Positions 3,496-62,785 of a DNA stretch of 64,000 nucleotides are shown here, piece by piece. Under the pieces are notes generated by a model. It was given only the letters and a program-made list of their open reading frames with translations, had not been told where the DNA came from and ran no database searches. Location of the stretch: assembly GCA_964016885.1 (NCBI GenBank), contig CAXHJY010000461.1:34831-98830 (forward strand), given 5' to 3'. Numbering within the stretch: position 1 is the stretch's first letter; each line of letters opens with the position of its first letter. The stretch is from Eledone cirrhosa. Its lineage: Eukaryota. The position numbers were made by a program, and so were the translations under genes.

Positions 3496-4059
3496 AAAAA
3501 TCATATAAGGGTTTTGAGATCAAAAAAGAAAAGTTTGAAAACTATTGATAGAAAAAAATGTTTTGCAATATTTGTTACGGCCCTTTGTCGTTTATTCTGA
3601 GATTTAAAAGTTGGTGTGTATAGATATTTTCTTCGTCTCCCAGTAAATATGTAACGCCACTATTCATTCTTTTAAACCCATTTTGGGGTTCTAAAAAAGA
3701 CTCAATTTTATTTTTGTGACTTAAGACCCTCCTCCCTTCTAGGGGGCCAGTCAAACCTTTTTCATTTCTGCCCTTTAGAGCACAAAAAAGAACATTTATT
3801 TAAACAAAGTCAAACAACAAAAAACATGGCGCCAAAATATCCTCTTTAGCTCTGTCTTTCTTTTTAAAAAGCACGTGCTGACTCCGTCGTTGCCACCAAC
3901 ACTCAGCAAGCATATAACAAAAGCAGCAATAACATCACTAATATACCATGTCACCATCACAAAAAAAAAAACATTCATATAAATAATATCAACACCATAA
4001 ACAATATCAGTCACAGGAACATAAACAACGATAGCACTGACAAAAACAACAACGATACA

Positions 4060-4435
4060 ACCAGCAGCAACAACAAAACGAACTACGACACAACCGGCAC
4101 CAGCGTCAATAGCAACAACACAACCTGCAGCAGAAACAGTAACAAAACGAACAACGACACAACCAACACCAGCGATAGCAACAACAACAAAACGAGCAAC
4201 GACAGAACCTGCACCAGCGACAGCAGCAACAACAAAACGAACAACGACAGAACCTGCACCAGCGATAGCAGCAACAACAACAACAAAACGAACAACGACA
4301 GAACCTGCACCAGCGATAGCAGCAACAACAACAACAAAACGAACAACGACAGAACCTGCACCAGCGATAGCAGCAACAACAACAACAAAACGAACAACGA
4401 CAGAACCTGCACCAGCGATAGCAGCAACAACAACA
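4060..4435. repeat. ~45-51-bp tandem repeat in the LINE ORF1 N-terminal region
   Basis: AACAACGACAGAACCTGCACCAGCGATAGCAGCAACAACAACAACAAAACG, about 7 copies. Confidence 0.9.
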
Positions 4436-5069
4436 TGTTTGCAGCTAAGAAAAGGCTATGTTTTCACATAAACCTTTTGTTTTGGCCCAGTCATGGAAGA
4501 TAACCAAACGCGAAAAATACCGGGTTAACCTAATCGTCCCGGCCAAGGCAATGGAGGCAGTTAAGCGGTGTGGATCCAGATAATGTCCGCAAAGAAAGAG
4601 GCAGGCAATTCGGCTCCCTCTCGGCGCTGTTTAAGTTTGAAGCCCTTACTCTGAAACACTCAGTGACTCCATGTAGATCGGAACAAGTGGCAATATATCT
4701 GTTCCATGGGCAGAAGGACAGTCAGGTCCGCATTCCAGGTATCCCACCAGAACTGGACGTTTGGTGGCTCCTGGGATGTGTGAGCGAGGAGGGTACAGAT
4801 ATGTCTCCCATTGAATTCACAAAAACATCTAGAGAGGATCGGTCTGAAGTGGATTTGGAGATCCTTCTCCAAAGAAAACCAGAAGATATAAAAATATCCT
4901 GGATCACATCTGCCTACAAGATGGGTCTGTCATACAAGCAGCCATTGAGGGCAAAAGGCCACTTTGTTTCATCTGCAATGAAACCAGACACCTGTGAGCC
5001 TTTTGCCCCTAAAATAAAAAGTGCAGAGTGCTGCAAACTTCATTGCTGTCAACACTGGGGTGAAGACAA

Positions 5070-5230
5070 CCAATACCAGTCAAACCATCACCAGCAGCAG
5101 CAATACCAGTTGAACCATCACCAGCACCAGCAGCAATAACAGTCAAACCATCACTATCAGCAGCAATACCAGTCCAATCATCACCAGCAGCAATACCAGT
5201 CCAACCACCACCACCACCAGCAATACCAGT
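5070..5230. repeat. ~27-bp minisatellite, left part
   Basis: CAACCATCACCAGCAGCAATACCAGTC-like units. Confidence 0.9.
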
Positions 5231-7058
5231 TGGCTGGATATCAGGTGGAATGCGAACGCATGGTGCGGTTGGCGTTCATAAATGAATTTCCAGACGACAT
5301 AGTGGTGAAACTGCAGCAAGTCCCGGGTTACAAAGAAATGGAGATGCGTGCACTGGTGAAGCAAGCCCGCATCATAGCAGAAGATGCCAAAAAGAGTGTC
5401 GCGGCGATAGCAACTACAGAGGTCCAAGACAGCTGGCAGCGAAATGGTGAAAGGGAGGCAACCACGCCACGCGGTTGCCCGCGAATGTTTAGAGGTTGCT
5501 GTTTTAGGTGCCAGAGCCCGCACATGGCAAGAGACTGTAGAGAGTCAAGGCTGGAAATAATATGCTACTGGTGTAAGCGACCAGGGGAACTACTGCGCCG
5601 GTAGTTGCCCCTTACGAGTAGAGGCGCTGCCCGTGGTGGAAGTCTTCGTGAGGGGAAAGCCACAGCGAGCCCTCGTGGACACGGGCTGTACGAGGACACT
5701 GGTGACCGCGGGGGTGGCGCAGAGGTGGAGAGGGAAGGGCAGTCGACGGCAGGAAAATTGAATGCCAAGGTCACAGTGAGGTGGAGATGGCCGTACGGGG
5801 AAGGAAATTAAGGCTTTCTGCCATCGTAGTCAACAACGTGGTGGATGGGATCGGCGTGGTTATAGGCATGGATGCAATTGGCTGTCTAGGAGGCGTCACA
5901 GTGAACAACGTCGGTGTGTCGTTTGGTGGCGCTGTGAGTACGCGACAAGGGAACCAGAAGGCCCACGAGGAGAAATACCCCGCTTACACTGTGCAGAACA
6001 AAGACTTCAAGGTCGTGTTCGATGGGTTGTTGAGTGGTATTGGAAGGGAGAACCACCAACACCGAAGACCAAAGTGGCCTGCTATCAACACACATTAAAG
6101 GGAGACATTAGGAGCGAGAGGTAGAGAGATGGATTGAGGAGGGCATACTGTTTCCTTGGAATGAGGAGGTGAAGTGCGGAGTATTGCCGTTAATGGCGGT
6201 GGCGCAATACACGAAGAACACGGTGAGGCCGGTACTGGACTTTCGGGAGCTGAACGAGCACGTGTCATGCCACACGGGTGGCGAGGTCACGGATGTCTGT
6301 GGGGAAACCCTGCGTGAGTGGAGATGCATGACGGGGGGATTCCGCAATCATAGATCTAAAGTCAGCATACTTGGAATTGCATATAGATGAGAAGCTCTGG
6401 CAGTATTAGCTGGTCGGGTATAAGGGCCGGACATAATGCCTGACCAGGCTCGGTTTCGCTGAGTTCCGCACCGAGGTTGAGGAATCGGTGCCACACAGAG
6501 CAGTATTCAGATACAAGTGCTGGCACCCGTGCACGCCACCACAACGGCCAGTGGGGAGAGAGAATGCGTTCGTGCAGGTGAGCGAAGAAGTCTGGGTTAA
6601 GCCCCCAGATGCACGTTGCACATCTCAATGGGAAAGAGGAACGGTGACTGCCGTAAATTCCCAGAACAATGTGTCCGTGGACGGAGTACCACATCATGTC
6701 CTGGATGTCCGTAGAATCACTGTGTCAACGGACTGCGAGGAAGAGGAAACCCAAAGTGCTGCCCCAACACTGGAGATCGCAAAGAAGTCGCAAAGCACCA
6801 ACCTGGACAGCAGACTTTCATATGCAGAAAGACGAGGGGGAAATTGATCCTTGAGATGGGGGGAAGCTGGGGAGTGCTCGACCGGAAAGGGCAGCAAGTC
6901 GGCCTCTCTCTAGCGGTGATCAGGAACGTGGTGGACGCAAGTTTTGCAGCTCCAGGTTTTTAACGAGTTGGATTGTACGCACGCAGAAGAGGAGAAACCA
7001 GCCATGTGATCTAGCGGCGCCTGTGAAAAGTGGTAAGTGAGGTAGCTTTTTCTAACCA
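5231..7058 (+). mobile_element. Ty3/Gypsy-like LTR retrotransposon remnant, internally deleted
   Basis: Gag zinc knuckles CFRCQSPHMARDC and CYWCKRPG; protease ALVDTGC (~5668); RT VRPVLDFRELN, IIDLKSAY and CLTRLGF; jump at ~6477 to post-integrase VWVKPPDARCTSQW; purine tract 6826-6843 followed by a partial LTR. Confidence 0.85.
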
Positions 7059-7059
7059 C

Positions 7060-7710
7060 AAAACCATCACCATCAGCAATACCACAGTCCAACCATCACC
7101 AGCAGCAATACCAGTCAAACCACCACCACCAGCAGCAATACCAGTCCAACAATCACCATCAGCAATACCACAGTCCAACCATCACCAGCAGCAATACCAG
7201 TCCAACCTATCACCAGCAGTAATACCAGTCCAACCTATCACCAACAGCAATACCAGTCCAACCATCATCACCAGCAGCAATACCAGTCAAACCATCACCA
7301 GCAGCAATACCAGTCAAACCATCACCAGCAGCAATACCACAGTCCAACCATCACCAACAGCAATACCAGTCCAACCATCACCAGCAGCAGCCATACCAGT
7401 CCAACCATCACCATCAGCAATACCACAGTCCAATCACCACCAGCAACAATACCAGTCCAACCATCATTACCAGCAGCAATACCAGTCCAACCATCATCAC
7501 CAGCAGCAATACCAGTCCAACCATCACCAGCAGCAATACCACAGTCCAACCATCACCAGCAGTAATACCAGACCAGCCATCACCAGCAGCAGCAATACCA
7601 GTCCAACCATCACCAGCAGTAATACCAGTCCAATCACCACCAGCAGCAATACCAGTCCAGCCATCACCTGCAGCAGCAATACCACAGTCCAACCATCATC
7701 ACCATCAAAA
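7060..7710. repeat. ~27-bp minisatellite, right part
   Basis: Same unit as 5070-5230, more than 20 degenerate copies. Confidence 0.9.
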
Positions 7711-7985
7711 CCAACCAGGGGTAAATGAGGAAAGCTATCCCACTGCCACTCCTGAAACAAATACACACAAACAAAATCACATTCCCACTCCCTTCTGACA
7801 CAGACTCCCCAGACACAAGTCCCACTTCATCCGCAAGTGAGGATGGGGAGAGGGGTAACCCCAGAAACAAAAGTACATCTTCACACACCTCAACCATCAA
7901 CAAAAACAACTACAAAAAATAAACAAATATACACAACCACAGACAAAAATGGAAACACGCCACTACGTGTTGTTAAGAAAGCAAC

Positions 7986-8128
7986 ATAGTTACGTCCCTT
8001 TACAATCTGTGTTCAAATCCCGCCGAAGTTAACTTTGCCTTTCATCCTTACAGTGTCGATAAAATAAAGTACCAGTAATGTACTGGGTAATTGCTGGCCT
8101 TGTGCCTAAAGTAGAGACAATTATTATT
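7986..8128 (+). mobile_element. SINE, 5'-truncated, with (ATT)n tail
   Basis: GTTCAAATCCCGCC..AACTTTGCCTTTCATCC..GTCGATAAAATAAAGTACCAG..GGCCTTGTGCC..ATTATTATT; family recurs many times in the window. Confidence 0.85.
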
Positions 8129-11100
8129 GAAGGTGAAGCCACACTTCTCGGCTCCAGTTTTTTTTTCAACTATATACATCTATTTCGACCGTTTCTAAAC
8201 TTCTGTTCAAGTTTTAAACTTGATAAGAGTTTAGAGGAAGTGACCCGCTTAATACAGGGGTTTCACTTGTTAATAATACGACACCCCATAAAGGGGTGTC
8301 GTATTATGTAAAATTTACTTGAAATAATTTTCATTCAAACATGGATACCAGCAAAAAGAGAGAACGCCATCAGACAACACAGAGAGAGGAAGAAGTCAAC
8401 AAGACGGTGTTCGAGCAAAGATGAATACAAAAGAAATATTACGAAAGAAAAGAGAAACAATATCCTTTTTAATGATGTTTCAGATTTAAAAAAGCCAAAT
8501 AGTACTGACACAAACAACACCATCAATAACGGCGATAAGGTCGAGAAAGACAATAACAACAGTAACCAGCAGCAGTATCAATGAAAACAACAATAACAGT
8601 AAGAACGATCCTAGCACCAACAACAAGGGGCCACTTCTTTTGCAGGTGTGGCCCGAAATATAGAAACAGTGCTAGTCACGGAAGAGGAGATAGCAGTCGC
8701 AAGGGCCATGGTGACAAGAAATGCCAATCAAGTCTCCCTGAAACCTCCACCCGATTTTTTTCAAGGACCAGCAGCTACGGACGGTGATTTACCGCACTGT
8801 AAGCAAAATATCACATCATGTGGAGAGAGCCATGGTGGCTCAAATTCAAAAGGCCTTGGAGTGCGTCTGGGCATGCAAAACCCACATCACCCGAAGCAAA
8901 AAGTATGCCTAAGTAGACGTACTTTTGCCACCCCCGAAAAGACAAAGTCTCACTCTTTGGTAACCCTAAAGAGTGAGGAGATAGTCTTGGTGCCCTCCTA
9001 CTGCGGGCAGAAAATTGTGAGGGTGAAAGTGACCCAGGTCCCGCCCGACGTGCCCATGCCGTGGCTGGCCACATCTGTACTTGCTGGAATCGAGGACAGG
9101 AAGACCGTGCTGCATGTACATATAATGGGGAGGGAGAACTGGTCAGGTATAGGCATGTAAATCTAATACAAACTGACCAGGAGTTTATCGAGGCTATCCC
9201 GGACATCATAGACCTCGAGGAAGGAGTCCAATTCCCTATAAGTGTGGAAGCAAGGCTCCCAAAGTGCTAGCTCTGGGTCTAAGGAGCCTTTTGCCCGCAG
9301 AAGACTGTGAAGAAGAAGACGTCCCTCCTTCCAACACCTGGTCCGCTGCTACCAAGATCAGGGCAGGCAGCAGACCCTTCCATGCGGAGTAGGAGAGCAA
9401 CGTCTGTGACACCCATACCAAGGCCTCGGACAACTAAAACAGTGGCAGCAGTTGAGGCAACACCAATAGCTACATTTGCAATAGCTGCACCAGCAATAAA
9501 ATCGCCAGAGAGGGCTATACTACCACCACCAACAGCCATGAAGCACATACCCCTCCCAGATGCCAAGAAATCCGACATAGAGTGTGAGGCGGGAGTGAAG
9601 TGGCAAGAGGTCTGCCACAAAAAAAAAGGAGCCCTGAGCTTCGCCTCCAAAAGCGAGGACAAACAGAGAGGGGTAAAGGCTGCAAGGCAACTTTCAGCAT
9701 CACCGCAAACACAGCAAAGCACACACACCCAACAGCACCCCACCCCCAAACAAAAAAATTTACACAGCCATAAACATTGCAAATAAAGAACTTATGGAAC
9801 ATATAAAGCAGCACACATTCATTACAGACAAAAATTACCATACCCCACCAACACCAAGAACATTACTAAAAAATATAAACATCATTCAAATCAAACTGAA
9901 ACAATATAAACTTTTGAAACAAAAGAGAATATACACAGACATCCATGACCAGCTGAAGGGATGGTTCTACTGTCCCTTCCCCACACGATCAAGGTAAGTG
10001 ATCCTTTCTCACTTACCCCGTTCCTCACCCGGCATGGCCGTACTCAGAATAGGCAGTGTAAATGTATGTGGCTTGGGATCATCTTGGAAGCAGGGTCACC
10101 TGCTCAACGATCTCAGGTCACTAAACATAAATGTGGTGGCCATCAGCAAGACCAGAATCTCCGAAGCATGAGCCTTTGCACTGTTCTTCGGCAGCTACGA
10201 TGTATACACATCTCCCAGCCGTCGGGGAGAGGAGTTGCTGTGCTTTTTCGGAGAGGCTTGGATCTCGCCATACGGACCATCTTCCTGGATCCAGAAGGTA
10301 AGTCAATGATGCTGGACATGACCGGCAGCGAAGGTAATGCTTTCTGGCTAGAAGCCGTCTAAGCCCCAATAGGGGCAAGGACGGCCAAATTTCTTTAGAT
10401 GTCTAGAGACCTTTCTTGGAATGTTCCGCTCTTTAGTGTTAGTGGGCGACTGGAACGGTATCTTGGATGCATGCTGGGATTATGTGGGGCTAGTAGACAG
10501 AGGAGGAGGGTGTAAAAGACTCAACAACCTGCTCAGACGGTTTCAACTGTCTGACAGGTAGAGACTGGATTATCTAAATGTGGATATGGGCAAACTGCAT
10601 TGGGTCATCCAGAGTAATTAGAGTAGAATCAATAAGGTTTAACAAAGGAGTAGTAATAGAATAGAATAGAGGACGAGCTAGAAGAGGCGTTTAGGACAGG
10701 CATTGCAACCGATGTGCTTGCGGCAAGATTGGCACTCAACCAATTCTTCAATTCAAAGTACGACGGTTGTGTTGTCAGAGCTAGAGCTTGTGCTCTGAGA
10801 CACGGGATGAAAGCCATTCAATGGGCCTGAGTGGTGGAGGCGTGGCGTAGCAACATATCCACAATTCGGTCTTTGCCTGATCAAAATGGGGGCATGTTGC
10901 TTGAAACCCGAGCAGATGTGTGGCTTTTCAACAACACTTTGCTCAATTGTTCGGACTTCAGTGCATACCTCGACAGACTGTCGCGGCTCTTGACGACCAC
11001 AGCGCAGTGCTTCGAAAAGCCGATAACAGCAGGTAAAATACGGGAAGCGATGTCTGACTGCATGAGGGGCAAATTGCCAGGTTTGGATGGTCTGCCCTAC

Positions 11101-11648
11101 GAGCTTTATGTGTACGTGCCAGACTTGTTCGGCGACCTCTAGGCAGACGTCTACTGTCATGTGTAGGACGGATCCGGTTATCCACTGAGTCCATTGTGCA
11201 GATAGCCCTGCCATCCTCTTTTAAGGAGGAGGAAGGGCAGGCAGTTTTCATCTGCCTGGTGGTCATGGTGAAAGAGATTGTATAGTGGACAAGGTTGAAA
11301 GGATTGAATACGGACACTTTCCTCTTCGGCGAATCCCTGATTAACTTTTTCAAGTTTCACTTGAAGAGGAAAATCAGGGTGGAGAGACAAGTGCTATCTT
11401 CTAGTAAGTTTGTTGAACGGTGGGTGAAAGTGGCAAATCTTGTTCGAGTGAACGGGCCTGTTCTGAGTATGCGCCTGTAGACTGAGGGGTGGGAGAACTG
11501 AGAGAGGGTGCTTGCCCTGGTGGTCAGGGTGGCCGTGGTCTTGTGTAAACGCCCACTGTCCCAGTCTTTTGTATTGTCCCGTATATGTCGGCCCTTGTGG
11601 CCAATAAATGAAATCATTATTATTACTATTGTTATTATTATTATAATT
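8129..11648 (+). mobile_element. L1/Tx1-clade LINE B, decayed, most of RT deleted
   Basis: 5'UTR shared with C and E; ORF1 remnants 8648-9997; ORF2 from 10034 (MAVLRIGSVNV, GDWNG, KLPGLDGLPYELY); deletion at ~11160; 3' end GGCCCTTGTGGCCAATAAATGAAATC(ATT)n. Confidence 0.85.
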
Positions 11649-13480
11649 AAAGGTGAATCCATGCTTCATATAGCCTCCAGGTATATTTGGACTGTTTACA
11701 TTTATTCCAAGCGTCTCTAACCCTTCATTTGAGTTTTAAACTTGATAAGAGTTTAGAGCAAGTGACCCACTTACCACAGGTGAGTCACTCGTATTAATAT
11801 GATGCCCCTGTTAAGAGGGTGTCGCCTTAGTTAAATTTCCTCTCAAAAAACTTTTTTGCACCAACATTTTTAACATGGATACAGTTAGAGAGAGCATTGT
11901 AAGACAATACAGAGAGAGGGAGAGAGAGCATTGTATGACAACACAGAGAGAGGGAGACGATGTTGTCAACAGTCAGGCAAGTCAACATTCTATCAAAGGT
12001 AACTTCACCAAAAAGTATTTTAAAAGAAAATAACTCGTTTTCAATGATATTGTTTTACGATCAAAACAGTTAAGTGGTTCCAACAGAAACACCAACACAA
12101 CCAATAACAACAGCAACAATGATAAAAATGTAAACAGCAACGAAAATAACGACAAAATCAAAAAAAGTCAATAACAATGAAAACAACAACAACAACAGCA
12201 GTATCAACAGAAACAACAACAACCGCACCAACTACAGCGACATATACACTTTTACTGCAGTAGCAGCCAAAACGAGGCCATTCCTCAGCATGAATCTCAG
12301 CAAGAAAAAGGGAAAGTTGGCCAGGCCTGGAAGCTCATCAAACAAGAGCAAACCTGGGCCAACTGAACTGTCCCAGCAGAAACCATAAAAGCAGTAGAAA
12401 GAAGAATGGTGCATTTCAGCCCAGACGAAAAAGCGACAATAATTGCCCAAGCCAAAATTGAAGCTGTACTGAGGTGCATCAGGGATGACACCATGTACAT
12501 AGCAAGGGGCAGACAACATGGCACCATTTTGGTGTTGTTTAAGTCAGAAGTTCTCACTATTAAACACGTAATGACCCCTTGCAAAACCAGCAAGTTTATT
12601 ATGTACTCCTCCCACATGGGAAAAAGATCAGTGAAATTCCCCTACGACTAGATATGTGGTGGCTCCTGGGATGCGTGATTGTCGAGGAGATGGATACCAT
12701 CCCGATCGAGGTAATGAGAACTGGTCTGGGGTTGACCTGGAGATACTTCTCCAGATCAGGCCAGAAAAATCCCGGACCATATACGCCTCCAAAAAGGGAC
12801 AGTCCTACACATAATGACTGAAGGCAAAAGGCTGCTTTGTTTCGTTGTGGTAAAGCAACTCACTTGAGAGCATTCTGCTCTCAGCTCAAAAATGTAAGGG
12901 GTCAAAAATCTCCACTGCTGCCAACAGCTAGGACAAAAAACAACAAAGCAAATAGCACCAACAACAACACCAGTAGGGACCATTAAAACTACACAAGGCG
13001 TCACCCAAACAAGCCCTCCTTCTTCCAAACATATACAGAGTAAACACATTCCCACTCCCCTCTGACACAGAGTCCCCAGACTTCAATTCCTCCTTATCCC
13101 CAAGTGAAGATGGGGAGGGGGGTAACCCCAAAACTAAAAACAAAAATACATCACACACCAACAAGTACTCAAAACATACCCACAGCTAACACAAACACAA
13201 CACCTCAACTGTCTACAAAAACCACCAACAACACTGACACAACCACAAAAAATAAACATACACAACCACAGACAAAAATGAAAACCCGCACCTTTGTGTT
13301 GTTAAGAAAGAGCAACAAAGATCTAATGTCTCTTGCAACAGGAAGCCAACACATTGACAAAGAGGGGAGGTTTTTGGCACCTGCACCTTTAAAGTACCCC
13401 AAACACGAAAAAGAATTTGAGAAAGCTTTCCCTATGACATGGGAACCCCTAGTGCACAATCTAATCGACTTTTACCGCCC
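11649..13480 (+). mobile_element. L1/Tx1-clade LINE remnant C (5'UTR plus ORF1)
   Basis: 5'UTR AGTTTTAAACTTGATAAGAGTTTAGAG; ORF1 YIARGRQHGTILVLFKSE..SHMGKR..DMWWLLGCV; ends at a SINE-type tail. Confidence 0.75.
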
Positions 13481-13740
13481 TCCAATATTGTTGGCCTTGT
13501 GCCTAAATCAGAAACCATTATTATTATTATTATCAGTGGATTGGCAGTATCGGTAGAGGGTCGGACGCTATGCTTTGACGTATAGAGTTACGGCCCTTGC
13601 CATTCTGAGTTCAAATCCCGCCGAGGTTAATTTTGCTTTTCATCCTTACGGGGTCGATAAAATGAAGTACCAGTAATGCTCTGGGTAATTTCTGGCCTTG
13701 TGCCAAACGTAGAAACAATTATTATTATTATTATTATTAT
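13481..13740 (+). mobile_element. SINE 3' end followed directly by a full SINE (13534-13740)
   Basis: GGCCTTGTGCCTAAATCAGAAACC(ATT)n, then GTGGATTGGCAGTATCGGTAGAG..GAGTTCAAATCCCGCC..(ATT)n. Confidence 0.85.
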
Positions 13741-13959
13741 ATATATATGTTTTCAACCAATTATGATGTCTTTTTTTTTTGGAGCTCAGCAAAAGTGGTA
13801 AATTTTCAGTTTATTTTTGTTTGTAATAATTGTTGCATTTTGTGAAAAGGGTCGTAAGACTTCCATCTTTGTCCTGTGAAGGGGGACGCTATAATATTTG
13901 AGCCTTTTACCCCAATGGTAAGTCTGCTGTCGTGTGACAGAAGCTTAAACATTGAGAGG

Positions 13960-16900
13960 AGGGATACGGCGAACACAACATGAACAATGACAGCAGCATC
14001 AGTGAGAGCATTAATGTTTCAAAAAGTGACAACAGCAGTAACAGCGACAGCCAAAAGACAAACAACAGAAACAACAAAATTAACACCACAAACAAGAACA
14101 TGAACAGTGACAGTACCAACAGCAACAAAAACAACCACTGTGGCACTGTGGCAAAGATAAAACCAACTGCAACAGCAATAAGAATGACGACAGCACCACC
14201 ACCAACAACAACAACGACAACAAAGAGAAAAACTCTTTCGCTGTCGCAGCAGTCAATAAAAGGCCAAGCTTTAGCATGGACCTGACGAACAAAGAAAAAA
14301 AGTTGGCTCAGACATGGAAGCTCATCAAACAGGAACAAACCTGGGCCAGCTTAACTGTCCCGGCAGTGGCGAGGAGAACTCTAGTCTTTAGATGCATCTC
14401 AACTGAGACAAAAAAAGCCACCAACACTCCCCAAGCAGATGTCGAGTCTGCGCTGAGGTGCATCAGAAACGATACAGAATACATAGCAAGGGGTAGACAA
14501 TACGGCACCATCTTGGTGCTGTTTAAGTCAGAAGCCCTCACTTTGAAGCATGCGATGACCCCTTGCAGAATCAGCAAGGTTATAATGTACCCCTCCCACA
14601 TGGGAAAAAGAACTGTTAGAGTCTGCATTCCCAGGATTCCACCAGGACTAGATATGTGATGTGGTGGCTCTTGGGATGCGTGATTGTGGAGGGGACATGC
14701 CGTCCCAATAGAAGTAACAAGAACAGAGAGCACTGGTCCGGGATTGATCTGGAGATACTTCTCCAGATCAAATCTGAAGAACTAAGGAAAATTCCGGAGA
14801 AGATTCGTCTCCAAAACGGGATGGTTCTACAAGTGATGACTGAGGCCACAACGCCGCACTGTTTCGTTTGCGGTGAAACAACACACTTGCGAGCCTTCTG
14901 TCCTCAGGTATTGAAAAATGCAAGGGGTCAAAAGTCTGTGCTGTTGCCGATGTTGGGGCCTCAAAAACAACAGCATGAACACCAGCGACCACCAGCAAAA
15001 CCAACAACAGCTACAGAACCACCACAACCAATAACAAAGGCAAAGACCACTCAGAGGCCACTCCAAAGAAGCTCTCCTGCCTCCCCTTCTCGAACACACA
15101 CATACACATTGAAACACTTACATCTGACACAAACACAGCAACCTCTTCATCACTGAGCGAGGATGAGGAAGAGCACCAACAACTGAAAAAACAAAAAAGA
15201 AATCTCACTCAGCAAACAAAGAAGACACTTGCACCAAACACAGACACATACCATAATACCCACCCCTGCAACAACACAATACCCACCTCCACCAACAACT
15301 AAAACACACACAGCAACAACTCACAACCACGACACCACCTAACTTCTTTTAAAGAGATTCCCAAAGCCCCCCCAACCAGGCATGGAGGTCAAACCGCCCA
15401 ACCTCCAACAGCACCCTGGGAGTAAGTAACCCTCTTTTTTTTTTACCAACATGGTCATATTAAGAGTAGGAAGTTTAAATGTTTGAGGCCTGGGGTTGCC
15501 TGCTCAATGACCTCAGGTCTCTAGAAATGGATGTAATTGCTGTCAGCGAGACCAGGATTTCTGACGCGCGCACTACCCCCCCCATGTTCGACGACTATCA
15601 GATCTTCGCATCTATTAGTTGGCTGGGAATGGGAGGTGGGGGTGGCAGTGTTGTTTAGGAAAGGCCTGGATCTCAAGGTAAGGTCGATCTTCCGGGACCC
15701 GGGATGGTAAGTTGGTGGTCCTGGACGTGAGCAATAGCGAAGGTGACGCTTTTAGACTGATAGCCGTCTATGCTCCTGGAGGGCCAAATTTCTTTAAATG
15801 CCTGGAAACCTTTCTAGGTAGTCTTGCTCTTTACTGTTAGCAGGGGGACTGGAACGGCATCTTGTGAACCTGGACCAACCACATAGGGTCATCTAGATTG
15901 TATACGGACAGGATTTTCATTAAGGAAATAGATAGAAATAGTATAGACTGTCCACGTTTTAAAACGGTCTCCTATTCAGATCACAAGTTTGTGATCTGTA
16001 TGGTCGACCTATATAAGACGCGTAGTTTAGGACCTGGTTACTGGAAGAGGAACATGTCGTTTCCGGCACGTAAGGCTTATGGGGACCGGATCAACAATTT
16101 AGTTAAGCAAAAGTTGACGGGGATGGGGGGATTGTCAACAATAGGTGGTAGTGGGGCTCTCAATAGAGAGATTAGAGTAATTTCGATAGGGTTTAGCAAA
16201 GAAGTAGTGTTAGAGAAGAATAGAAAGGAGGGGGAGCTGGTAGCTAAGTTAGACAAGGATATTTGTAGTGGCATTGAAACTGACATGCTAGCGGCGAGAA
16301 TGGCATTAGACCATTTCTTCAATGAGAAACATGAAGGTTGCATTGTCAGAGCTAAGGCGTGTGTTCTGAGAAACGAGGGAACCAAAGCTGTTTGATGGGC
16401 TCACGTGGCGGAGGCACAGCATGGTAATAAAACCTCAATTCGGTCTTTGGCGGACCAAGACAGGCACGAGCTGAGCAATTCCAAGCAGATGCGTGAGGCC
16501 CTTCGCCAGCACTTTGCTAGGTTGTTCGGGGAAGTGGCGGGTCAGAGACAATAGCGGACTTCAGTCCCTACCTCGATGGCTTGCCTCGCCTCTTGACAGC
16601 CAATGCTGAACGCTACGAAGGGCCCATTACTTAAGCTGAAATTCCGGGTGCCCTTGTCGGCTGCACGAAGCACAAGCCACCTGGTTTGGATGGTCTGCCC
16701 TACAAGCTTTACGTAAATATGCCAGGCTTGTTCTCCAATCTCCTTGAAGCGCTCTACTGCAACTGGCAGCAGAACAAGAGGGACACATTAGATAACTCCA
16801 GGCACATAACTCTGCTCAACACAGAGTTTAAGATTTTGGCCAAGGTGTTAGCGAAGAGGTTGCCGCTTGTCGTTGAGGATTTGGTTGGGGAGGCGCAAAC

Positions 16901-18770
16901 TGGCGCAATCCTGAGACCAGGTCCATACACGACAACCTTCACCTCATGCAATAAATCATAGAGAGGGTAGGGTGTAAACCTGGCTTCAGTGGGGCTTTGA
17001 TCAATTTAGATCAATCAAAAGCATTCGATATGGTCGAGGATCGGTACCTGGAGGTTGTTTTCAAGGCAGCTGGCTTCGGCCCCGTCTTCAGAAGTTGGAT
17101 CGCTTCAATGCACAGTGGCATCAGCTCAGTGGTCAAAGTTAATGGCCACCTCTTGGAACCGTGTCAGATCTCCCGATCGGTCCGTCAAGGGTGCCCTCTC
17201 TTCTCCCTTCTGTACGTATTGAGTTTCAAGCCTTTACTGCGGAAGCTCGAGCTGTTGCAGGGCATCCTGCTTGAACCAGGACGTGGAAAGGCTGTGTCGG
17301 CTTATGCGAATGACATTACAGTGATGGTGTCGGACACCTCGGAAATCAAGGCGGTCAGCACCTTATTGGAGGAATATGAAAGGTTGAAGGGAGCGAAACT
17401 TAACCCAGAAAGTTGGTGGGCTTCTAGCTCGACACGCGGAGTGTCACGTCCATGCCGTCCAATAGTACCGGGCGCAAGATGGACAGACCAGTCAAGTTGC
17501 TTGAGGTTTGGTTTGGACCAGACCTCCAGGTGGATAATTGGGATGAGGTAGCCAGTCTCACCCAGAAATGGGCTGCAAGGAAGCTATCACTGAAATGTCG
17601 GGCGGAGGTGGAGTTTGCGCGCGTACATCGCGTCTGTCATCTACTGCCACCTGACCATCGTGCCTTGCCCCCATCCACCTCCCGCCAAGTTGGAATGGCT
17701 CCTCTTCAAATTCTTGTGGAGGGGACAGGTTCCGTTGGTCCATCTGCTGCCAGCACCCTCTACATGGGGGGCTGGGAATGCCATGGCTAATGATGTGTTG
17801 AGGCTGTGGCATCTCCAGATATTCTGCCTAAACAGTGAACTGGTGTGGTTGCCGTTTGTCAGATGGGCCTTTCCATAGCTCATCTCTTTGACTGAGCTGC
17901 AGTCCTGGGTCAAGACGAGACCGAGACTGGGTAACTGGCATCTGGAATGTTGCCAGGCACCCACTTCCCTCTGCCAGGTGGTCTTGAGTTCTATAGAGGA
18001 TTAGTGATGAGCAATTGCGACGACGCACTTGGAGAGGCTCTGGGCGTCGACAAAGTTGAACTGACTAGTCTGTTCCAGAGGTCTTTTGAGCTGGGGACGA
18101 TGGATAATTTCCAGAAATCCCTCACCTTGCACCAGGAGGCAATGCCTGTTTAGGATAAACTCTACAGGCACAGAAGTACTGTCAGACAGACCTGTCTGTG
18201 ATGAGTGCAGAGCAACAAAACAATTCTGCATGCACTCGTCCAGTGACCGTGCATTACTGACTTGTGGAGTTATGTCGAACAGCTGTTGTCGTGTGTAGAA
18301 TGGTTCCGGCTATCGGCCAAGTCCATAGTGGAGATCGACTCACCGCCTTCTTTTGGCCAGGAAGGGCAGGCATTTTTCCTCTGTCTGGTGGACCAGGTTG
18401 AAAGGACTAAAGACAGACACTTTTCTCTTCGGCCAATCCCTCATCAACTTCTTCAAGTTTCACCTGGAAAGAATGGTGAGGGTGGAAGGAGAAGTGCTCC
18501 CCCCCCCCCCCCAGTATATTTACTAAAAGATGGGTGAATGTGGTGTGAATGGCCCATGTGAGTAGGCCTACTCTGATTATGCGCTGTAGGCTGGTGGATT
18601 TGAGGGATTGGGGAATTCTCATTGAAATATTTTTCTTATTATCTTGTTATTGTTATTTATATTTTTTTTACACGTTTTATATATTACCCCCACTGTCCCT
18701 GTCTATTCTATTCTTCCCTATATGTTGGGCCTTGTGGCCGATAAATGAAACCATTATTATTATCATTATT
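13960..18770 (+). mobile_element. L1/Tx1-clade LINE D, near full length, pseudogenised
   Basis: ORF1 with CFVCGETTHLRAFC knuckle; ORF2 from 15451 with APE motifs (GDWNG, YSDHK, GPGYWK) and RT motifs (PGLDGLP, ITLLNTEFKILAK, LDQSKAFD, SVRQGCPL, AYANDI); many frameshifts; (ATT)n tail. Confidence 0.9.
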
Positions 18771-20582
18771 GAAATGTTTCATATTGGCTCCAGATTTTTT
18801 TCAACTGTGTACATTTATTGGGACTGCTTCTAACCTTTTATTCAAGTTTTAAACTTGATAAGAGTTTAGAACAATGGTGCCACTGAAAAAAGGGACCATT
18901 TTTTTCGGAATGTAGAGACAGTGATAGTCACAGAGGAGGAGATGGTGGTTGCAAGGGCGATGGTGACTAGAAAAGAAAATCGAGTCTCCCTGAAAACTCC
19001 ACCTGATTTTTTCAAAGACCAACAGCTGTGTACAGTGACATATCGTATGATAAGCAAAAAATCACACTGGGTGGAGGGAGCCACGTAGGCTCAAATTCAA
19101 AAGGCCTTGGTGTGTGTGTGGTCATGCAAAACCCACATCACCCGAAGCAAAAAGTATGCCACCATGGACGAGCTTTTTGCGACCCCCCAAGAGGCGAAGT
19201 CTCACTCCTTGGTGACCCTAAAGAGTGAGGAGATGGTATTAGTGCCCTCCTACTGCGGGCAGAAGATTGTGAGGGTCAAAGAGACTCAGGTCCTGCCCAA
19301 CGTACCCATACTTTGGCTGGCCGCAGTTGTTCTCACCAGAATCGAGGACAGGATGACCATGCTGCAAATGCAGAGAATAGGGAGGGAGAACTGGTCAGGT
19401 ATTGAAATGCAGATGCTAATCCAAACTGACCAGGAGTGTATCGAGGTTATCTCACACGTTATAGACCTCGAAGAAGGAATTCAACTCCACATAAGCGTGG
19501 AAGGAAGCCAGCCAAAGTGCTATCTCTGTGGGTAGAAGGGTCACCTCAGTGCTTTTGCCCACAGAAGTCAGCAAAGGAGAAGGCTCCCTCCTTCTGAAGG
19601 CTGGTCCGCTGCTACCAGGTCCTTCCGCAGTGGGTAGGAGGGCAACATCCATGGTACCCATATCAAGACCACAAACAACTAAAACAGTGGCGGCAACACC
19701 AACAGTTGCATTGTCGCTGGAGCAGGCTCCATTACCACCACCAACAGCCGTGGAGCTCAAACCCCTTCCAGACTCCGCACACTCCAACATGGATTGTGAG
19801 GCTGGAGTGGAAAAAGGTCTGCCACAAAAAGAAAAGGAAAAACCCCTTAGCTTCGCTTTCCAAAAGTGAGGGCAGACAAAGAGGAGTAAAGACTGCAAGG
19901 CAACTTGCAGCAACACAACCAACAACAACCACTGCATCACCACAAACACCAACATCACAAACACAACAAGGCATACACTCCCAACAGCAGCAACAAAACC
20001 AAATCCCTTCCCAAAAACTTACACAGCCATAAACATTGCAAATAAAGAATTTATGGAACATATAAAGCAGCACACAGACATTACAGACAAAAATTACTAC
20101 ACTCCACCAACACCAAGAACATTACCAAAAAATATAAACATCATTCAAATCGAACTGAAACAATATAAACTTTTGAAACAAAAGTCACTCTCCAAGAGAA
20201 TATACATAGACATCATCTTGTAGACATCCATGACCAGCTGAAGGGATGGTTCTACTGTCCCTTCCCCACATGATCAAGGTAAGTGATCCTTTCTCACTTA
20301 CTTCGTTCCTCACCCGGCATGGCCGTACTCAGAATAGGCAGTGTAAATGTACGTGGCTTGGGATCATCTTGGAAGCAGGGTCACCTGCTCAACGACCTCA
20401 GGTCACTAAACATAAATGTGGTGGCCATCAGCAAGACCAGAATTTCCAAAGCACGAGCCTTCGCACCAATCTTCGGCAGCTACGATCTATACACATCTTC
20501 CAGCCGTCCGGGAGAGGAGTTGCTGTGCTTTTTCGGAGAGACTTGGATCTCACCATACGGGCCATCTTCCTGGACCCAGAAG
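18771..20582 (+). mobile_element. L1/Tx1-clade LINE remnant E (same family as B), truncated in the endonuclease
   Basis: 18900-20580 is colinear with 8640-10295; ORF2 starts at 20319 (MAVLRIGSVNVRGLG). Confidence 0.85.
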
Positions 20583-22050
20583 TTCCACATGACAAAGTAA
20601 GACGCGCGAGAAAGTGTGACCTGAAGGTAAATTATGCCATCACACCGACTAAAAATAACTCCTGTTCAGACACTTACACCGCTCCCACCACTATAACCAA
20701 CAACAACAACAAAAGCAGCAGAAAGCAGGCAGGAGCCGCCCAAGTGCAATATCCTTCGCGAAGGCTGCCAAAAACATAGAAAGAAATCCACGTCAGTGAC
20801 AGGGAGGTGAGGGAGGTCAAGCTTTTGGTCAAGAAGAGCGGACACAGGGTCAGCCTCACCCATCCACCCGATGTTTGTGTTTTGTCTCATACCATAGAAC
20901 TGGACTCGGATCACACTGATGTTGAGGAAACAGGGGATAGAGCTGATTATCCAGTTGAACTATGAGAGCATAGAGGCCATCCTTGTGATTGACCTGGACA
21001 AGGGCAGCCATCTACTCATGACTGTTGAAGGTAGAAGGCCGAGGTGTAATGGGTGCAGAGATAAAATGCACCTAAACGCCTTCTGCCCAAAACTAACCAG
21101 GTGGACACATGTCACCCCTTCTCCCTATACTTGGTGTGGCCAAACCATCTGAGGCTGCAGTAGCAGCAAAACTACCAGCACCAGTCACACCAACAATAGA
21201 AACACAGTCTCTACCACCAAGACCACTGGAGCGCATACCCCTTCCTGATAAAGCACAATCGGACAAAGTGTGATGACGCTGTAGGGTGGAAAACTGTCGG
21301 AGCGAGATAAAAAAGAGAGAGCTCCCACCCTTCGCCCTCAAAAAAAAAAAGAGGATGAAAAAACAAAAAGAAGTGAAGACATCAACACCCCCACAACCAC
21401 CTTCATTATCATCAGCCCCATCGCCACTTCCATCAACACCACAGCAAACACAGAAAGCACCAACATCCCAATAGCAGACATAATTCACAGCTATAGACAC
21501 AGACAACAAAAAGCTTTTAAATTACATACAACTCAACACCAACATCTCAGAAACAAACCCTCAAAATTGCACCTCCCATATACATAAAAATAGTCAAAAT
21601 TTCACAGAAGATATATGCAACTTCAAAGAAAATGTTCTTCAAGGCAATTGTAGACTATTGAGGGACCCTCACAAAAAGAATGTACTCTGATATTCCTGTG
21701 GAAAAATCCATCACTGGATCGGAGAGATGGATCACCCACCCGCTTCCTAAAAAGCCAAAGGTTAAGTTTTTATTTTTTTCCCTCTCATTTGTTTTCCTCC
21801 TATCTTATTCAACATGGCTTCTCTCAGGATAAGCAGTAAAAACACGTAGCCTGGGTTCGTCTTGGAAGCAGGGCCACTTGCTCAACCTCAGGTCACTGAA
21901 CATAGATGTGGTGCCATCAGCAAGACCAGAATCTCCGAGGTATGAGCATTCGCACCCATTTTCAGCGGCTACAAGGTGTACACATCTCTAATCCTTCCCA
22001 GATCTGGGAGTGGAGTGGCAGTGTTGTTCCAGAGAAGTCTGGATCTCTAC
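20583..22050 (+). mobile_element. L1/Tx1-clade LINE remnant F (third ORF1 type plus ORF2 start)
   Basis: TVEGRRPRCNGCRDKMHLNAFCP knuckle; ORF2 start at 21814 similar to B and E. Confidence 0.75.
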
Positions 22051-25418: not shown

Positions 25419-26722
25419 CAGGGTGTAGACGATATTTGTTCGCAATTTTCAACTGATAATTTTATGCAAATTTTTTTTACTTCCGTTGTCACTCTTGTCT
25501 TCATAAAAACAGTGACTATATTTCCATTATTTATTTTCAGAATAATTGATTATGAATAATTTTGAACCTCCAAATTTGTGGAAGAGACACAGAGTTCTTC
25601 CAGGAATCCGCGCTGGGAGGACAAATGAGGAAATTTCAGACTTTCTCAGCGTCAGCAGGAGAATGGTAGAAAAGGTCAGAAAGGAATTGGAAGATTCAGG
25701 ATTCGACTACGAAGCAACATCAGAGAGGAAAACAAATGATCGACGATCTGACGCCTTCAGAACGCCCGAGTTCGTCGCTGAAGTTCAGGATATCATCAAC
25801 AATGAACCTAGCAAGTCGATGCATACCATTGCAAGGGAGAAAGGCGTGGATGAAAAGCTCATTAAGCTGGTGGTACATGAAGACATTCGCTACGTTTCAT
25901 ACAAGATGAGGAAAGGACAATTTCTGTCAAAGGCGATGCAAGAAAAGCGACTGAAGCACGCAAAGAAGCTGATCAACAAGTTGAAACACCCACTGGAGCC
26001 AGACATACTATAGTTTTTCTCCAACGAGAAAAACTTCTGCCAAGACCAGAAGATCAACTCCCAGAACTCGTGGCTCGCTGTCTCATCCAAAGACGTGCCC
26101 AGAGTCATGAAGAAAAAGTTTCCAGCGACAACATTGGTCTTAGGTGTCGTCAACAGTCAAGGTGACGTCATGCCACCTCACTTCTTCCCTGAGGGCCTCA
26201 AGCTGAACACCAATGGCTACATTCGCATTCTGAGCGAGGTAGTAAAGCCCTAGATCGACCAGGTAGCTGCAGGTAGGTCGTACGTGTGGCAGCAAGACTC
26301 AATGCCCTGCCATACCAGCCGAAAGACCCAAGCCTGACTGTCAGAGAATTTCGTTGACCACACTTCACCTGACATCTCGCCTCCCACCTCGCCTGACTGC
26401 AACCCCCTCGACTTCTTTGTGTGGGGCGCAGTGGAGCGAGACACCAACAGATCTAGCTGCAATACAAAAGATGATCTGAAGACCAGGATCACAAGTGCCT
26501 TTAGGGTCCTAAGTTGGAGGACAGTGACGAAGGCCTGTAGCCGGTTCTGAGGCCGCCTTGAGGCCGTCATCAAAGCCAATGGCGGGTTTATCGAGTGAGA
26601 TCGAAAGAACAAGTCATGAAGACAAACTGACCCAAGTTTGATAAATATATCTTAAAAAATAAAACTACTGTGTTATTTTTTCCTAGACAGTAATCTTGCG
26701 AACAAATATCGTCCGCACCCTG
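25419..26722 (+). mobile_element. Full-length Tc1/mariner transposon, DD37D (maT) type
   Basis: ~27-bp TIRs CAGGGTGTAGACGATATTTGTTCGCAA / TTGCGAACAAATATCGTCCGCACCCTG with TA on both sides. Confidence 0.95.
25552..26598 (+). pseudogene. DD37D transposase pseudogene
   Basis: One frame with 4 in-frame stops; FSNEK (first D changed to N), WQQD-x37-D in SPDCNPLD; ends ANGGFIE*. Confidence 0.9.
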
Positions 26723-26740
26723 TATATATATATATATATA

Positions 26741-28500: not shown

Positions 28501-31500
28501 ATCATCATCGTTTCATGTCTATCTTCCATGCTAGCATGGGTTAGATGGGAGTTATCCCACTTGAGGCACGATTGGTTGGGTGTCCATGTCTCGCTCGTAT
28601 AGGACTATCTGGCAGATTTTCTACGGCTGGATGCCCTTCCTGACACCAACCACATTTACAGTGTGGACTGGGAGGTTTTTACCATATTACCTACACAACC
28701 ACATTACAGCGTGGACTGTGTGTTTTTTTGTTGTGACACCTACATGACCTCATTAGTTTGGACTGGATGTTGTGGTACCAACATAACTTTACAGAGAAAG
28801 GGTGGTGTTGGCTGGAGTGGGAGGATGGAGTAGGAGTAGTAGGTTGGGGTGTATGTTTGGTTTGGAGGGGTCTACTGACTGTAGGTTAACTTTGCACGTA
28901 GGGAAGGTGGGTCTTCTGTATTACTGCGTAGCGCCAAAGGTCTTGGTCCAGTGACATTGTCTGAGAGAGGTGCAAGTGTGCAAGGTTGGAATTTATCATG
29001 TCATCCAAGGTTTTTCTGGGTCTACCTACTCCGTAACTTCCATCAATTTTGATCGCCCTGCACTTTTTATACAGCTGTCGTCTTTCATGTGCATCATGTG
29101 ACTATACCAACGTAGTCTTCTCTCAAGTAAACAGCATCTGATTCCCCTTATTCCTAATTAATCTTCCTTACTGTCAAAATCAAGTAATAAGCTTTTAAAT
29201 TTTTTACTGGCTGTGGGGTCCTTCAACTTCCATATTCTTCTCCTCAAGGTAGTCCTCCTCTGTCGTCAAGTACGTCTAGTTGTGAATATGTGGTCACTAA
29301 CTATGAGACTATGTTGGGAGGTGCATTCTTCACGGGGGGAGGGACTTAGTGTTTACAACAGACATTCTGTCACGTCTTCTAGTAAGGATATAATCTATCT
29401 GGTGGCGTGTTCCCCTGATATATAGATGATCAAGTGATTGTCTTATTTTTTGAAGTTTGTGTTACAGATAAATTTCTTTATTAGCCACAAGGGCACAAAA
29501 GAAGGGGACAAATACAAATGGGGAGTTTACATACAGGTATATGAAAATAAAACTATTAATACAATAACAATTTACACAGGGGTTGTACACCCCGAAAAAA
29601 TGTACAACTCTCATCTCCAAGAGCACCAAGAGTGAGTACTCCTTTCCTCTCTTCCTCTTTTTCCTCAACCTACAGGCTTATATAGGGAGAAGGCCCAACC
29701 ACTCGGGCCATCTTTGCCACATTCACCCACCTTTTATAAAATTTGCTGGGGTACAGCACCTCTCTCTCCATCTTGATTCTTCTTTCAAAATGATATTTGA
29801 AAAAACGAATCAGTTGTTGGCCGGAGAGAAAGGTGTCTGACCTCAGCCCTTTTAACCTCGTCCACCATATAACCTCTTTCACCATAGCCATAACGAAAAC
29901 CGCCTCTCCCTCGTTTTTGAATGACGGTGGCAGTTTGATCATAACAATGGACTTGGTGGTCAACTGGATTGGTCCCACCCGCGACAATAGTCGTTCTACA
30001 TAGCCCCACAGGTCAGTGACGCCTGGGCAGTGTACAAATGCATGTGCGACGGTTTCCTCGTCGCGCACGCATCTCAGACAGATCTTTTTCAAAGGGTCCC
30101 TACCCGGGCGCCCGTGTGTGTAGAGCTTGTCTCGAACTGGTAGAGCTCCTCGGTAGCACTGCCAGGGACTTTTGGAAGTTGTCCATCGGTCCCGGGCAGA
30201 AGGTCCTACCGAACAGACTGGCCACGTTCTCTACGCCTAGAGTTTCTCCGAGCGTGTCGTCACACTTGCTGCGGACCAACCCTCTATAGAATGTCGAAGT
30301 GGAGTCTCCACTGATCGCCGGGTCCGCCTGCCAGAGGACTGTGAGCGCCTGAGCACATTCGATGTGCCAGTCGCCCATTTTCCTCGGTCTTTGCTTGACC
30401 CAGGGCTGCAGCTCGGTGAGTGAGACGAGTCGTGGGAAGGTTTGCCTCACGAACGGAGTCCACACCGGTTGTCTGGTGAGGAATATGTGGAGGTGCTGCA
30501 GCCTGAGCGTGTGTTTGCGCATCGTCAGCCATGGCATCCCCAGCCCTCCGTTGGAAGGGTATTGGCAGCAGATGGAACTTCTCACCAAAGGAGCCCGTTT
30601 CTTCCAAAGGAATTGGAAGAGTGCGCGCTCCATTTTGGTGAGCGTTTTGGCTGGACAAGGCACGATGGTCAAGCGGAAGTAGATGATGGACGCTATAAAA
30701 GTGTTTGCCACCTCCGCTTGACTTTTCAAGGATAGTTTGCACTCGGCCCACTTCTGGGTGAGCGCAAACATCTTGGCCGTCACCTCATTCTAATTCTTAT
30801 CCACCTGGAGGTCCGGACCAAACCAGACCCTGAGCAGCTTTACCAGTCCTTCCGTCCAGCGTCTGACGACGTCATCGGAAGGCATCGGTTTGCCTCTCCA
30901 TGTCCCGAGTTGCAAACTGACGGATTTGTCCCGGTTCAGCTTCGCCCCTGTGAACCTTTCGTTACAGATAGTTAGGTTATTAGCGCCACAGAATTCCAGG
31001 ATTCTGAAGCCTTCCTCATTTCTAGAACCAAACCCATAGCCTCCATGGATTCCATCATAGCCATCACAATGTTGTCCAACGTGACCATTAAGGTCACCAG
31101 CAATAATTAAGTTGTCACTGTCGGTTATTTGGGAGGTAGTGTGCATTAGTGACTCATAGAACCTGCCTTTTATAACGTCAGGTAGGCCAGATTGGGGTGT
31201 ATAAGTGGATATTATTGTCACAGTAGTTCTATTTAGAACTAGTTTTATTTTAATTATTCTGCCATTCACTCTATTTACGGCAATTACCTTATCTACCCAT
31301 TTTTCTGTTAACATAATTTCTACTCCACCCAGTCCGTTGTCATTTCCCACCCAGAAAAGTTTATAGCATCGTTTTTTACCCACAATGAATCTAGCAGACC
31401 CCCCTCTCCACCTAGTCTCTTGAACACAACAAACATCAACTTCCTTATGTTCAAGCATCTCTACAACCTCATTTTCAATGTGCCTACATTCATGGTACCA

Positions 31501-62157: not shown

Positions 62158-62622
62158 TTGTATTATATATATATATATTATATATATTATATATATATAT
62201 ATATATTATATATTATATATATTATATATATATATATATATATTATATATATTATATATATTATATATATATATATATATATTATATTATATATATATAT
62301 TATTATATATATTATTATATATATATATTATATATATTTATTATATATATATATTATATATATATTTTATATATATATATTTATATTATATGTTATATAT
62401 ATATGTTATATATATATGTTATATATATTATATTATATATATTATTATTATATATATATTATATATATATATATTATATATATATTATATATATTATATA
62501 TTATATATATTATATATTATATATATTATATATTATATATATTATATATATTATATATATATATTATATATATTATATATATTATATATTATATATATTA
62601 TATATATATATTATATATATTA

Positions 62623-62707
<85 letters not shown>

Positions 62708-62785
62708 TATATATATATATTATATATATTATATATTATATATATATATATATTATATATATATATTATATATATATATGTTATA

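What the first reader, a model, noticed from the sequence alone, without database searches (positions are those of the whole stretch)
3780..22050. 18-kb same-strand chain of Tx1/L1-type LINEs stacked on (ATT)n tails
Seen: six LINE pieces with three ORF1 types, the SINEs and the Gypsy remnant are all on +. A shared 5'UTR (..AGTTTTAAACTTGATAAGAGTTTAGA) starts immediately after an (ATT)n tail three times: 8129 after a SINE, 11649 after B and 18771 after D. A SINE starts after another tail at 13534. Established: several Tx1-clade families are target-specific, including for microsatellites. Inference: a family that targets the same ATT repeat it leaves as a tail would build self-extending arrays. 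Counterpoint: the 29.5-kb copy is not in a microsatellite.
Basis: partly seen in the sequence, partly recalled or inferred. Interest (0 to 1): 0.7.

Follow-up and report, generated by a model that had tools for sequence, protein, structure and literature searches.

The report
Retrotransposons stacking in their ATT tails
In this octopus-like genome a group of jumping genes and a small passenger element end in ATT repeats and sit right behind ATT repeats, likely because they cut at the same short motif they leave behind, so they pile up head-to-tail; repeat-seeking elements are known, but I found no paper describing this target for this group.

Summary
In detail: three LINE heads and one SINE start directly after (ATT)n tails, and every piece is on +. 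The pattern is genome-wide. 82 of 85 sampled heads of this type have ATTATT within 16 nt upstream (control 1%); for 52 the run is another LINE's or SINE's tail. Of 40 anchored SINE target duplications, 32 begin ATTA, so the target looks like a short ATTAT motif that (ATT)n tails repeat. ATT-tailed LINE ends cluster (42 of 99 gaps under 20 kb, 4.5 expected; 38 of 42 same strand). An unrelated R4/Dong-like element uses the same runs from the other strand. The 29.5-kb copy has a 10-bp duplication at a near-match site. Local duplication is rejected. Limits: the window's chain is old and several of its joints look like deletions; 15 of 33 truncated LINE junctions lack ATTAT; Tx1-clade membership is favoured but unresolved; no cleavage or RNA data. 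The scan already reported this system on other DNA of this genome (e1-9522035, e1-9592150, e1-9561528, e1-9580941). Verdict: new variant of known microsatellite-targeting LINEs.

The parts
3800..5232 (+). LINE piece A, ORF1 part (A/C/D type); 5' end not defined, no ATT run in front
   Evidence: 68% to D over 4590-5008; ORF1 tblastn 4597-5006; junction print
5233..7061 (+). Broken LTR-retroelement (Gypsy-like) remnant lying inside A's 27-30-bp repeat region
   Evidence: aspartyl protease Pfam E 1e-4, below cut-off; zinc-knuckle and RT-like motifs read in frames with stops; repeats on both sides. Gypsy label rests on recalled motifs
7062..7981 (+). Rest of A's ORF1 region, cut at 7981
   Evidence: 27-bp repeat 7062-7713; 7775-7989 is 81-84% like C
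7982..8128 (+). 3' part of SINE with (ATT)3 tail at 8120-8128
   Evidence: 87% to a full SINE copy
8129..11649 (+). LINE B: head, ORF1, internally deleted ORF2, 3' end, (ATT)n tail 11616-11649
11650..13440 (+). LINE C: same head type as B, D-like ORF1, no ORF2
13450..13533 (+). SINE-type 3' end piece with (ATT)n tail 13517-13533
   Evidence: matches another SINE end at 53756-53814
13534..13740 (+). Full SINE with (ATT)n tail 13718-13740
   Evidence: 91% to a full SINE copy; A- and B-box-like motifs by eye
13741..18770 (+). LINE D: damaged head of another family, ORF1, broken APE+RT ORF2, tail 18753-18770
   Evidence: RVT_1 E 1.7e-10; tblastn; family head search
18771..20582 (+). LINE E: B-type head (shortened), ORF1, start of ORF2, cut at 20582
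   Evidence: 78% to B over 1735 nt
20750..22050 (+). LINE F: third ORF1 type and start of ORF2, no tail
29471..30960 (-). 5'-truncated copy outside the chain, flanked by a 10-bp duplication (30961-30970 and 29461-29470) inside another element's endonuclease gene

Best explanation
The chain is an old, partly deleted array of two-ORF APE-RT LINEs and a SINE that end in (ATT)n and start behind ATT runs, likely built by repeated independent insertions into those runs. Proposed mechanism: the LINE endonuclease would nick the strand opposite ATTAT, freeing a 3' end that reads ...ATAAT and can pair with the (AUU)n end of the RNA to prime reverse transcription (inferred; same logic as L1 poly(A) with its T-rich nick site, recalled). 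The second cut falls about 10-20 nt downstream (shown for SINE copies). Every insertion leaves ATT on both sides, so it supplies new targets, and because ATTAT occurs on only one strand of the run, newcomers keep the same orientation (orientation shown, cause inferred). The SINE shares the LINE's last ~25 nt and likely borrows its enzymes. An unrelated single-ORF R4/Dong-like element sits in the same runs on the opposite strand (shown elsewhere in the genome, absent from this window). Later deletions and an LTR-element insertion trimmed the window's chain (inferred).
For: Heads: 29 of 30 (by eye), 82 of 85 after removing duplicates against 201 of 20,000 random 16-mers; 115 of 131 genome-wide on the minus strand; D-family heads 18 of 19. 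The upstream run is a LINE tail in 29, a SINE tail in 23 and an antisense Dong-like end in 17 of 85 (12 by script; 5 by eye). Tails: 65 of 69 have ATTATT; 32 are followed by a same-strand LINE or SINE, 17 by an antisense Dong-like element, 2 by an antisense LINE or SINE, 18 by other sequence (two rows corrected by eye). SINE duplications: 44 of 80 complete copies against 14 of 236 shuffled pairs; of 40 anchored, 32 begin ATTA, 5 ATCA. Truncated LINE junctions: 18 of 33 with ATTAT against 4.7%. Clustering: 42 of 99 gaps under 20 kb (4.5 expected), 38 of 42 same strand; 25 of 46 beyond 100 kb. Three further arrays show the same polarity with mixed families.
Against: 15 of 33 truncated LINE junctions lack ATTAT. 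Full-length copies show almost no unique target duplication (1 of 43; only about 8 are informative), and heads start in one phase after ATT, so part of the ATT in front of a head may come from the RNA, not the target. Most SINE heads do not follow an ATT run directly (27 of 133), so the preference is for a short motif, not strict for microsatellites. Some sampled loci are not independent (L062-L064 look like copies of one array). Samples are mostly the first hits on contig C1. In the window, three inner joints and both ends are not tail-to-head. No cleavage assay and no empty-site comparison were possible.
Confidence: 0.84

Rival explanations
1. The ATT in front of heads is simply part of the element's 5' end, and the elements have no real target preference.
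For: Heads of five families start in one phase after ATT, nearly always with G; degenerate GTT units before the head recur at unlinked loci; full-length copies lack unique duplications.
Against: Does not explain why 52 of 85 upstream runs are tails of other elements, SINE duplications that begin ATTA, or truncated copies after ATT. It may still hold as an addition to targeting.
Confidence: 0.06
2. Neighbours were copied together by read-through transcription or template jumping, so tandems arise in one step.
For: Some pairings recur often; one neighbour pair is 99% identical over 800 nt; L062-L064 share the same upstream tail.
Against: One head type follows many different neighbours with different run lengths; antisense Dong-like elements are interleaved; tandem SINEs are separated by repeated target duplications.
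Confidence: 0.05
3. Random insertion with biased retention, such as a one-strand piRNA-cluster-like trap or a gene-poor dump.
For: All pieces in 18 kb, including the LTR remnant, share a strand.
Against: Base-exact junctions at ATT genome-wide; strand concordance vanishes beyond 100 kb; copies elsewhere in the window lie on both strands; Dong-like elements take the opposite strand.
Confidence: 0.03
4. Local segmental duplication of one unit.
For: B and E are 78% alike; A's tail region is closest to C (81% over 122 nt).
Against: The three heads have three different upstream neighbours; B ORF1 is 85% to another locus against 75% to E, D ORF1 81% against 71%.
Confidence: 0.02

Closest known systems
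Kibi (TC)n, Koshi (TTC)n and crocodilian Tx1 families on (TTCC)n/(TTTC)n (PMC4494074, passages and section 15; PMC3812793, passages)
   Same: APE-type LINEs of the L1/Tx1 group that prefer a microsatellite
   Different: Target here is ATTAT/(ATT)n; the octopod lineage forms its own clade apart from vertebrate TX1-named proteins; tail equals target; abundant partner SINE
Dong (Bombyx, Anopheles, Biomphalaria), R4 lineage (PMC3812793, PMC3774820, passages); Dong-R4 listed in Octopus (PMC13282606, PMC9115989, passages)
   Same: Same repeat, (TAA)n, read on the other strand; a Dong-like element shares the runs here
   Different: The window's elements have two ORFs and an APE and lie in the opposite orientation
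SINEU-3 with Tx1-Mar in crocodilians (PMC4494074, passages)
   Same: Tx1-linked SINE; sequential insertions give tandems that sandwich a target duplication
   Different: Target is a Mariner element that the insertion does not create; snRNA-derived head
SART1 and TRAS1 of Bombyx telomeres (PMC7265360, passages)
   Same: Two families enter one repeat in opposite directions; RNA-target pairing aids priming
   Different: Telomeric TTAGG; both APE-type (R1 clade, recalled); SART1 ends in poly(A); here the runs are interstitial and the two enzymes are of different classes
Mammalian L1/Alu inserting into A-rich tails (recalled; one search gave no paper that shows it)
   Same: Tail resembles the nick site, so earlier insertions make later targets
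   Different: Mononucleotide tail, relaxed RNA recognition; here a trinucleotide tail and a shared 3' end

Membership tests
L1 group / Tx1 clade LINE | Two ORFs; ORF2 with APE, RT and C-terminal zinc domain; ORF1 with zinc knuckle | tested here: met
   Young relatives: Exo_endo_phos E 1e-16, RVT_1 E 7e-27, ORF1 zf-CCHC E 0.0055 below cut-off; zf-RVT; best PDB hit L1 ORF2p
Tx1 clade | RT groups with Tx1 references | tested here: inconclusive
   Scores 232-294 bits to five source-named TX1/YTX2 proteins against 190 to L1 ORF2p, but the tree leaves the octopod clade in an open fork with them; no L1-proper or curated Tx1 reference was in the tree
Tx1 clade | Target-sequence preference (over 20% of flanks in PMC4494074's rule) | tested here: met
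   82 of 85 heads; 115 of 131
Tx1 clade | Endonuclease itself cleaves the target | not testable with these tools
   Needs an in vitro assay
Mammalian-type L1 | Poly(A) tail | tested here: not met
   65 of 69 tails have ATTATT
R4/Dong (window elements) | Single ORF with C-terminal restriction-like endonuclease | tested here: not met
   Two ORFs with APE; no Dong-type end motif in the window
R4/Dong (antisense co-occupant elsewhere) | Single ORF, RT nearest R2-group, CCHC plus PD..D motif, (TAA)n flanks | tested here: met
   1141-aa open frame, best PDB hits R2, motifs read by eye, ATT runs at 51 of 57 ends; no named Dong reference compared
tRNA-derived SINE with LINE-derived tail | 3' end shared with partner LINE; target duplications | tested here: met
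   Shared last ~25 nt; 44 of 80 duplications. The small 3' hairpin is not more stable than shuffles
tRNA-derived SINE with LINE-derived tail | tRNA-derived head | tested here: inconclusive
   A- and B-box-like motifs by eye; ARAGORN and Rfam give no match
Unistrand piRNA cluster | One-strand small RNAs across the array | not testable with these tools
   No RNA holder listed

The most novel reading that the evidence does not exclude
Two unrelated retrotransposon machineries and a very abundant SINE manufacture each other's landing sites on opposite strands of one trinucleotide, building thousands of polarised arrays across the genome, and full-length copies of the APE-type LINE seal their 5' end by pairing an ATT leader on their RNA with the target, as R2 does with 28S sequence.
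Probability: 0.4. Interest if true: 0.7.

Novelty: new variant of a known kind. Interest (0 to 1): 0.5.

Why it matters
It would add ATT/TAA, so far a Dong target in the papers I could read, to the targets of APE-type L1/Tx1 elements, and give a case where tail and target are the same sequence. With at least 10,165 ATT-tailed LINE ends and at least 34,432 SINE head matches (inflated by a SINE-derived satellite), self-seeding would shape where much of this genome's repeat load lands. It offers a natural test of whether target choice comes from the endonuclease, from tail-target pairing, or both, and a short-motif endonuclease to compare with L1 and Kibi/Koshi.

Tried and rejected
Rfam found no snRNA, tRNA or ribozyme match in window 3000-33000 or in nine loci with heads and SINEs, so an snRNA target or a known ribozyme head has no support. 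The 26-mer overlaps a near-perfect palindrome; the head folds at z -2.2 in B but -0.7 in C, so no structure is claimed. A first count of heads held duplicates because loci overlap; it was redone. The automatic search for duplications around truncated LINEs was noisy (7 calls in 69, most made of ATT); 36 of 69 junctions had LINE body upstream and were set aside as deletions or inversions, which also removed a few true SINE-tail cases. One of 70 tail loci (L192) was dropped because the fetched stretch held little upstream sequence. The plus-strand count is inflated by several starts per locus and was not used. Sequencing runs: no RNA holder listed. The protein atlas gave no result. The supplement of PMC4494074, which lists Tx1 targets, could not be read. 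No structure or complex was predicted.

Full report
1. The observation. The shared 26-mer is exact at 8210, 11732 and 18845, with no match in 100 shuffles. LINE heads follow ATT tails at 8129, about 11650 and 18771, and a SINE follows one at 13534. BLAST against natural copies from other loci and tblastn with a young ORF1 and ORF2 place six LINE pieces and three SINE pieces on +. The chain is old: pieces are 70-91% like their best relatives among the fetched loci and the frames are broken. Five joints are tail-to-element (8128, 11649, 13533, 13740, 18770), D's being imprecise. Three are not (7981, about 13450, 20582) and look like deletions; A has no ATT in front and F no tail. The LTR-element remnant lies inside A's 27-bp repeats.

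2. Host. The genome is 3.0 Gb. A named ORF2 homologue at 55% identity comes from Argonauta hians and groups with the genome's own ORF2, so an octopod is inferred.

3. Heads follow ATT genome-wide. The head pattern has 446 matches at two mismatches. By eye 29 of the first 30 follow ATT. After removing duplicates, 82 of 85 B-type heads have ATTATT within 16 nt; the control is 201 of 20,000. On the minus strand, where each locus is counted once, 115 of 131 exact heads have ATTATT within 0-6 nt; eight of the misses that I had fetched still have ATT runs slightly further up. D-family heads do the same in 18 of 19 loci. Three further head types gave 16 of 16, 15 of 15 and 7 of 8, but I first met them behind tails, so these are biased. 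For the 85 B-type heads the run is a LINE tail in 29, a SINE tail in 23, the end of an antisense Dong-like element in 17 (12 by script, 5 by eye), other sequence in 15, absent in 1.

4. Tails collect further elements. Of 69 loci picked on the LINE 3' end alone (70 fetched, one dropped), 65 have ATTATT. The next thing is a same-strand LINE or SINE in 32, an antisense Dong-like element in 17, an antisense LINE or SINE in 2, other sequence in 18 (L149 and L150 corrected by eye; L145, L158 and L200 are doubtful). The genome holds at least 10,165 exact ATT-tailed LINE ends. Among the first 100 on contig C1, 42 of 99 gaps are under 20 kb (4.5 expected, at most 14 in 20,000 simulations), many near the 6-kb element length, and 38 of the 42 pairs share a strand; beyond 100 kb it is 25 of 46. 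Three arrays read in full mix families with that polarity; neighbours are 79-95% alike where they align, except one pair at 99%.

5. The target is a short motif. An ATT run before a head could be part of the element, so target duplications are the better test. Of 80 complete SINE copies, 44 have a duplication with some non-ATT sequence (14 of 236 shuffled pairs). Of 40 that start within 4 nt of the SINE end, the upstream copy begins ATTA in 32 and ATCA in 5; the ATCA cases are LINE tails. Lengths are 10-27 nt, mostly 13-20. Tandem SINEs often repeat one duplication between units, and some duplications include the first bases of the next element (L030, L202), so arrays also grow in front of a head. 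Truncated LINEs are weaker: 18 of 33 true-flank junctions have ATTAT against 4.7% by chance, 15 do not. The 29.5-kb copy is 5'-truncated, has a 10-bp duplication TATCTGTAAC and sits at ACTAT, one change from ATTAT, inside another element's endonuclease gene. It reads as a near-match insertion, not a counterexample.

6. An open point. Full-length copies almost never show a unique duplication (1 of 43; most are followed by another element, about 8 are informative), and heads start in one phase after ATT. Either they need long runs, or the RNA carries an ATT leader that pairs with the target. R2 RNAs can include upstream target sequence (PMC3774820, passages). This is inference.

7. What the elements are. 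A young ORF2 has APE and RT domains and hits L1 ORF2p best in the PDB. It scores higher to five source-named TX1/YTX2 proteins (232-294 bits) than to L1 ORF2p (190), but in a 29-row RT tree the octopod sequences form their own supported clade in an open fork with the TX1-named clade. No curated Tx1 or L1 reference was in the tree. The SINE shares the LINE's last ~25 nt, the pattern of stringent SINE-LINE pairs (PMC3747384, passages). The antisense co-occupant has one 1141-aa frame, RT nearest R2, and CCHC and PD..D motifs, which fits R4/Dong; it is absent from this window.

8. Rivals. Local duplication fails: three heads have three different upstream neighbours and closer or equal relatives elsewhere, apart from a 122-nt stretch shared by A and C. 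One-step co-mobilisation may explain single cases but not the variety of neighbours. Biased retention does not give base-exact junctions.

9. What is known. Microsatellite-targeting Tx1 families are described for (TC)n, (TTC)n, (TTCC)n and (TTTC)n, and sequential tandem insertion for SINEU-3 (PMC4494074, passages and section 15). TAA is a Dong target (PMC3812793, passages). Target-specific families fall in early-branched, Tx1 and R1 groups (PMC4640811, passages). SART1 and TRAS1 enter one telomeric repeat in opposite directions (PMC7265360, passages). L1-Tx1 and Dong-R4 are both listed as recently active in Octopus vulgaris without target analysis in the passages seen (PMC13282606; PMC9115989 for Dong). 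Searches showed no paper on an ATT-targeting Tx1/L1-type family or its pairing with Dong; I saw listings and passages only. Kojima and Fujiwara 2004, Repbase and the supplement of PMC4494074 were out of reach and may hold such a family.

10. Earlier notes. I saw the Dong-like partner before any look-up. The scan's notes describe the same system on other pieces of this genome and mention related families on TATC/GATA repeats; these are unchecked and are not counted as support.

Verdict: real, genome-wide, likely self-seeding insertion at ATTAT; a new variant of a known kind. Interest 0.5.

Noticed in passing
G000:C1 about 10.533-10.540 Mb; L120-L123; L136-L138: The first 45 nt of the SINE form a tandem satellite with a 45-bp period, which inflates SINE head counts.
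   Followed up: partly
L194:2740-6162 + and L178:1444-4866 -: Two Dong-like copies with an open 1141-aa frame, so this element may be young.
   Followed up: partly
window 8207-8223, 11729-11745, 18842-18858: The conserved 26-mer overlaps a 17-bp palindrome with a one-base spacer (perfect in B and E, one change in C), kept while the rest of the head is 70-86% alike; possible promoter site or hairpin.
   Followed up: partly
L005 and L016, upstream of the heads: Heads sit in ATT runs a few bases after what look like exon ends of a dynein heavy chain gene and a histone deacetylase gene (recalled motifs).
   Followed up: no
L139-L208: About half of the mapped LINE junctions are internal deletions (34 of 69 with same-strand LINE body upstream).
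   Followed up: partly
window 11650-13440 and L070, L105, L170, L205: At least five different 5' heads and several ORF1 types sit on ORF2s of one lineage (81-89% protein identity where measured), which suggests 5' swapping; C has B's head but a D-like ORF1.
   Followed up: partly
L207: One LINE tail runs into (CTT)n instead of (ATT)n.
   Followed up: no
window 47417-50943 and 62161-64000: A 25-bp tandem array of about 141 copies and a long TA-rich run.
   Followed up: no
window 25420-26730: A DNA-transposon-like element with inverted ends, probably Tc1/mariner (inverted match; label recalled).
   Followed up: no
L062-L064 (G000:C28): Three loci share the same LINE tail and head junction and a D-family head about 5 kb away; they look like duplicates of one array.
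   Followed up: no
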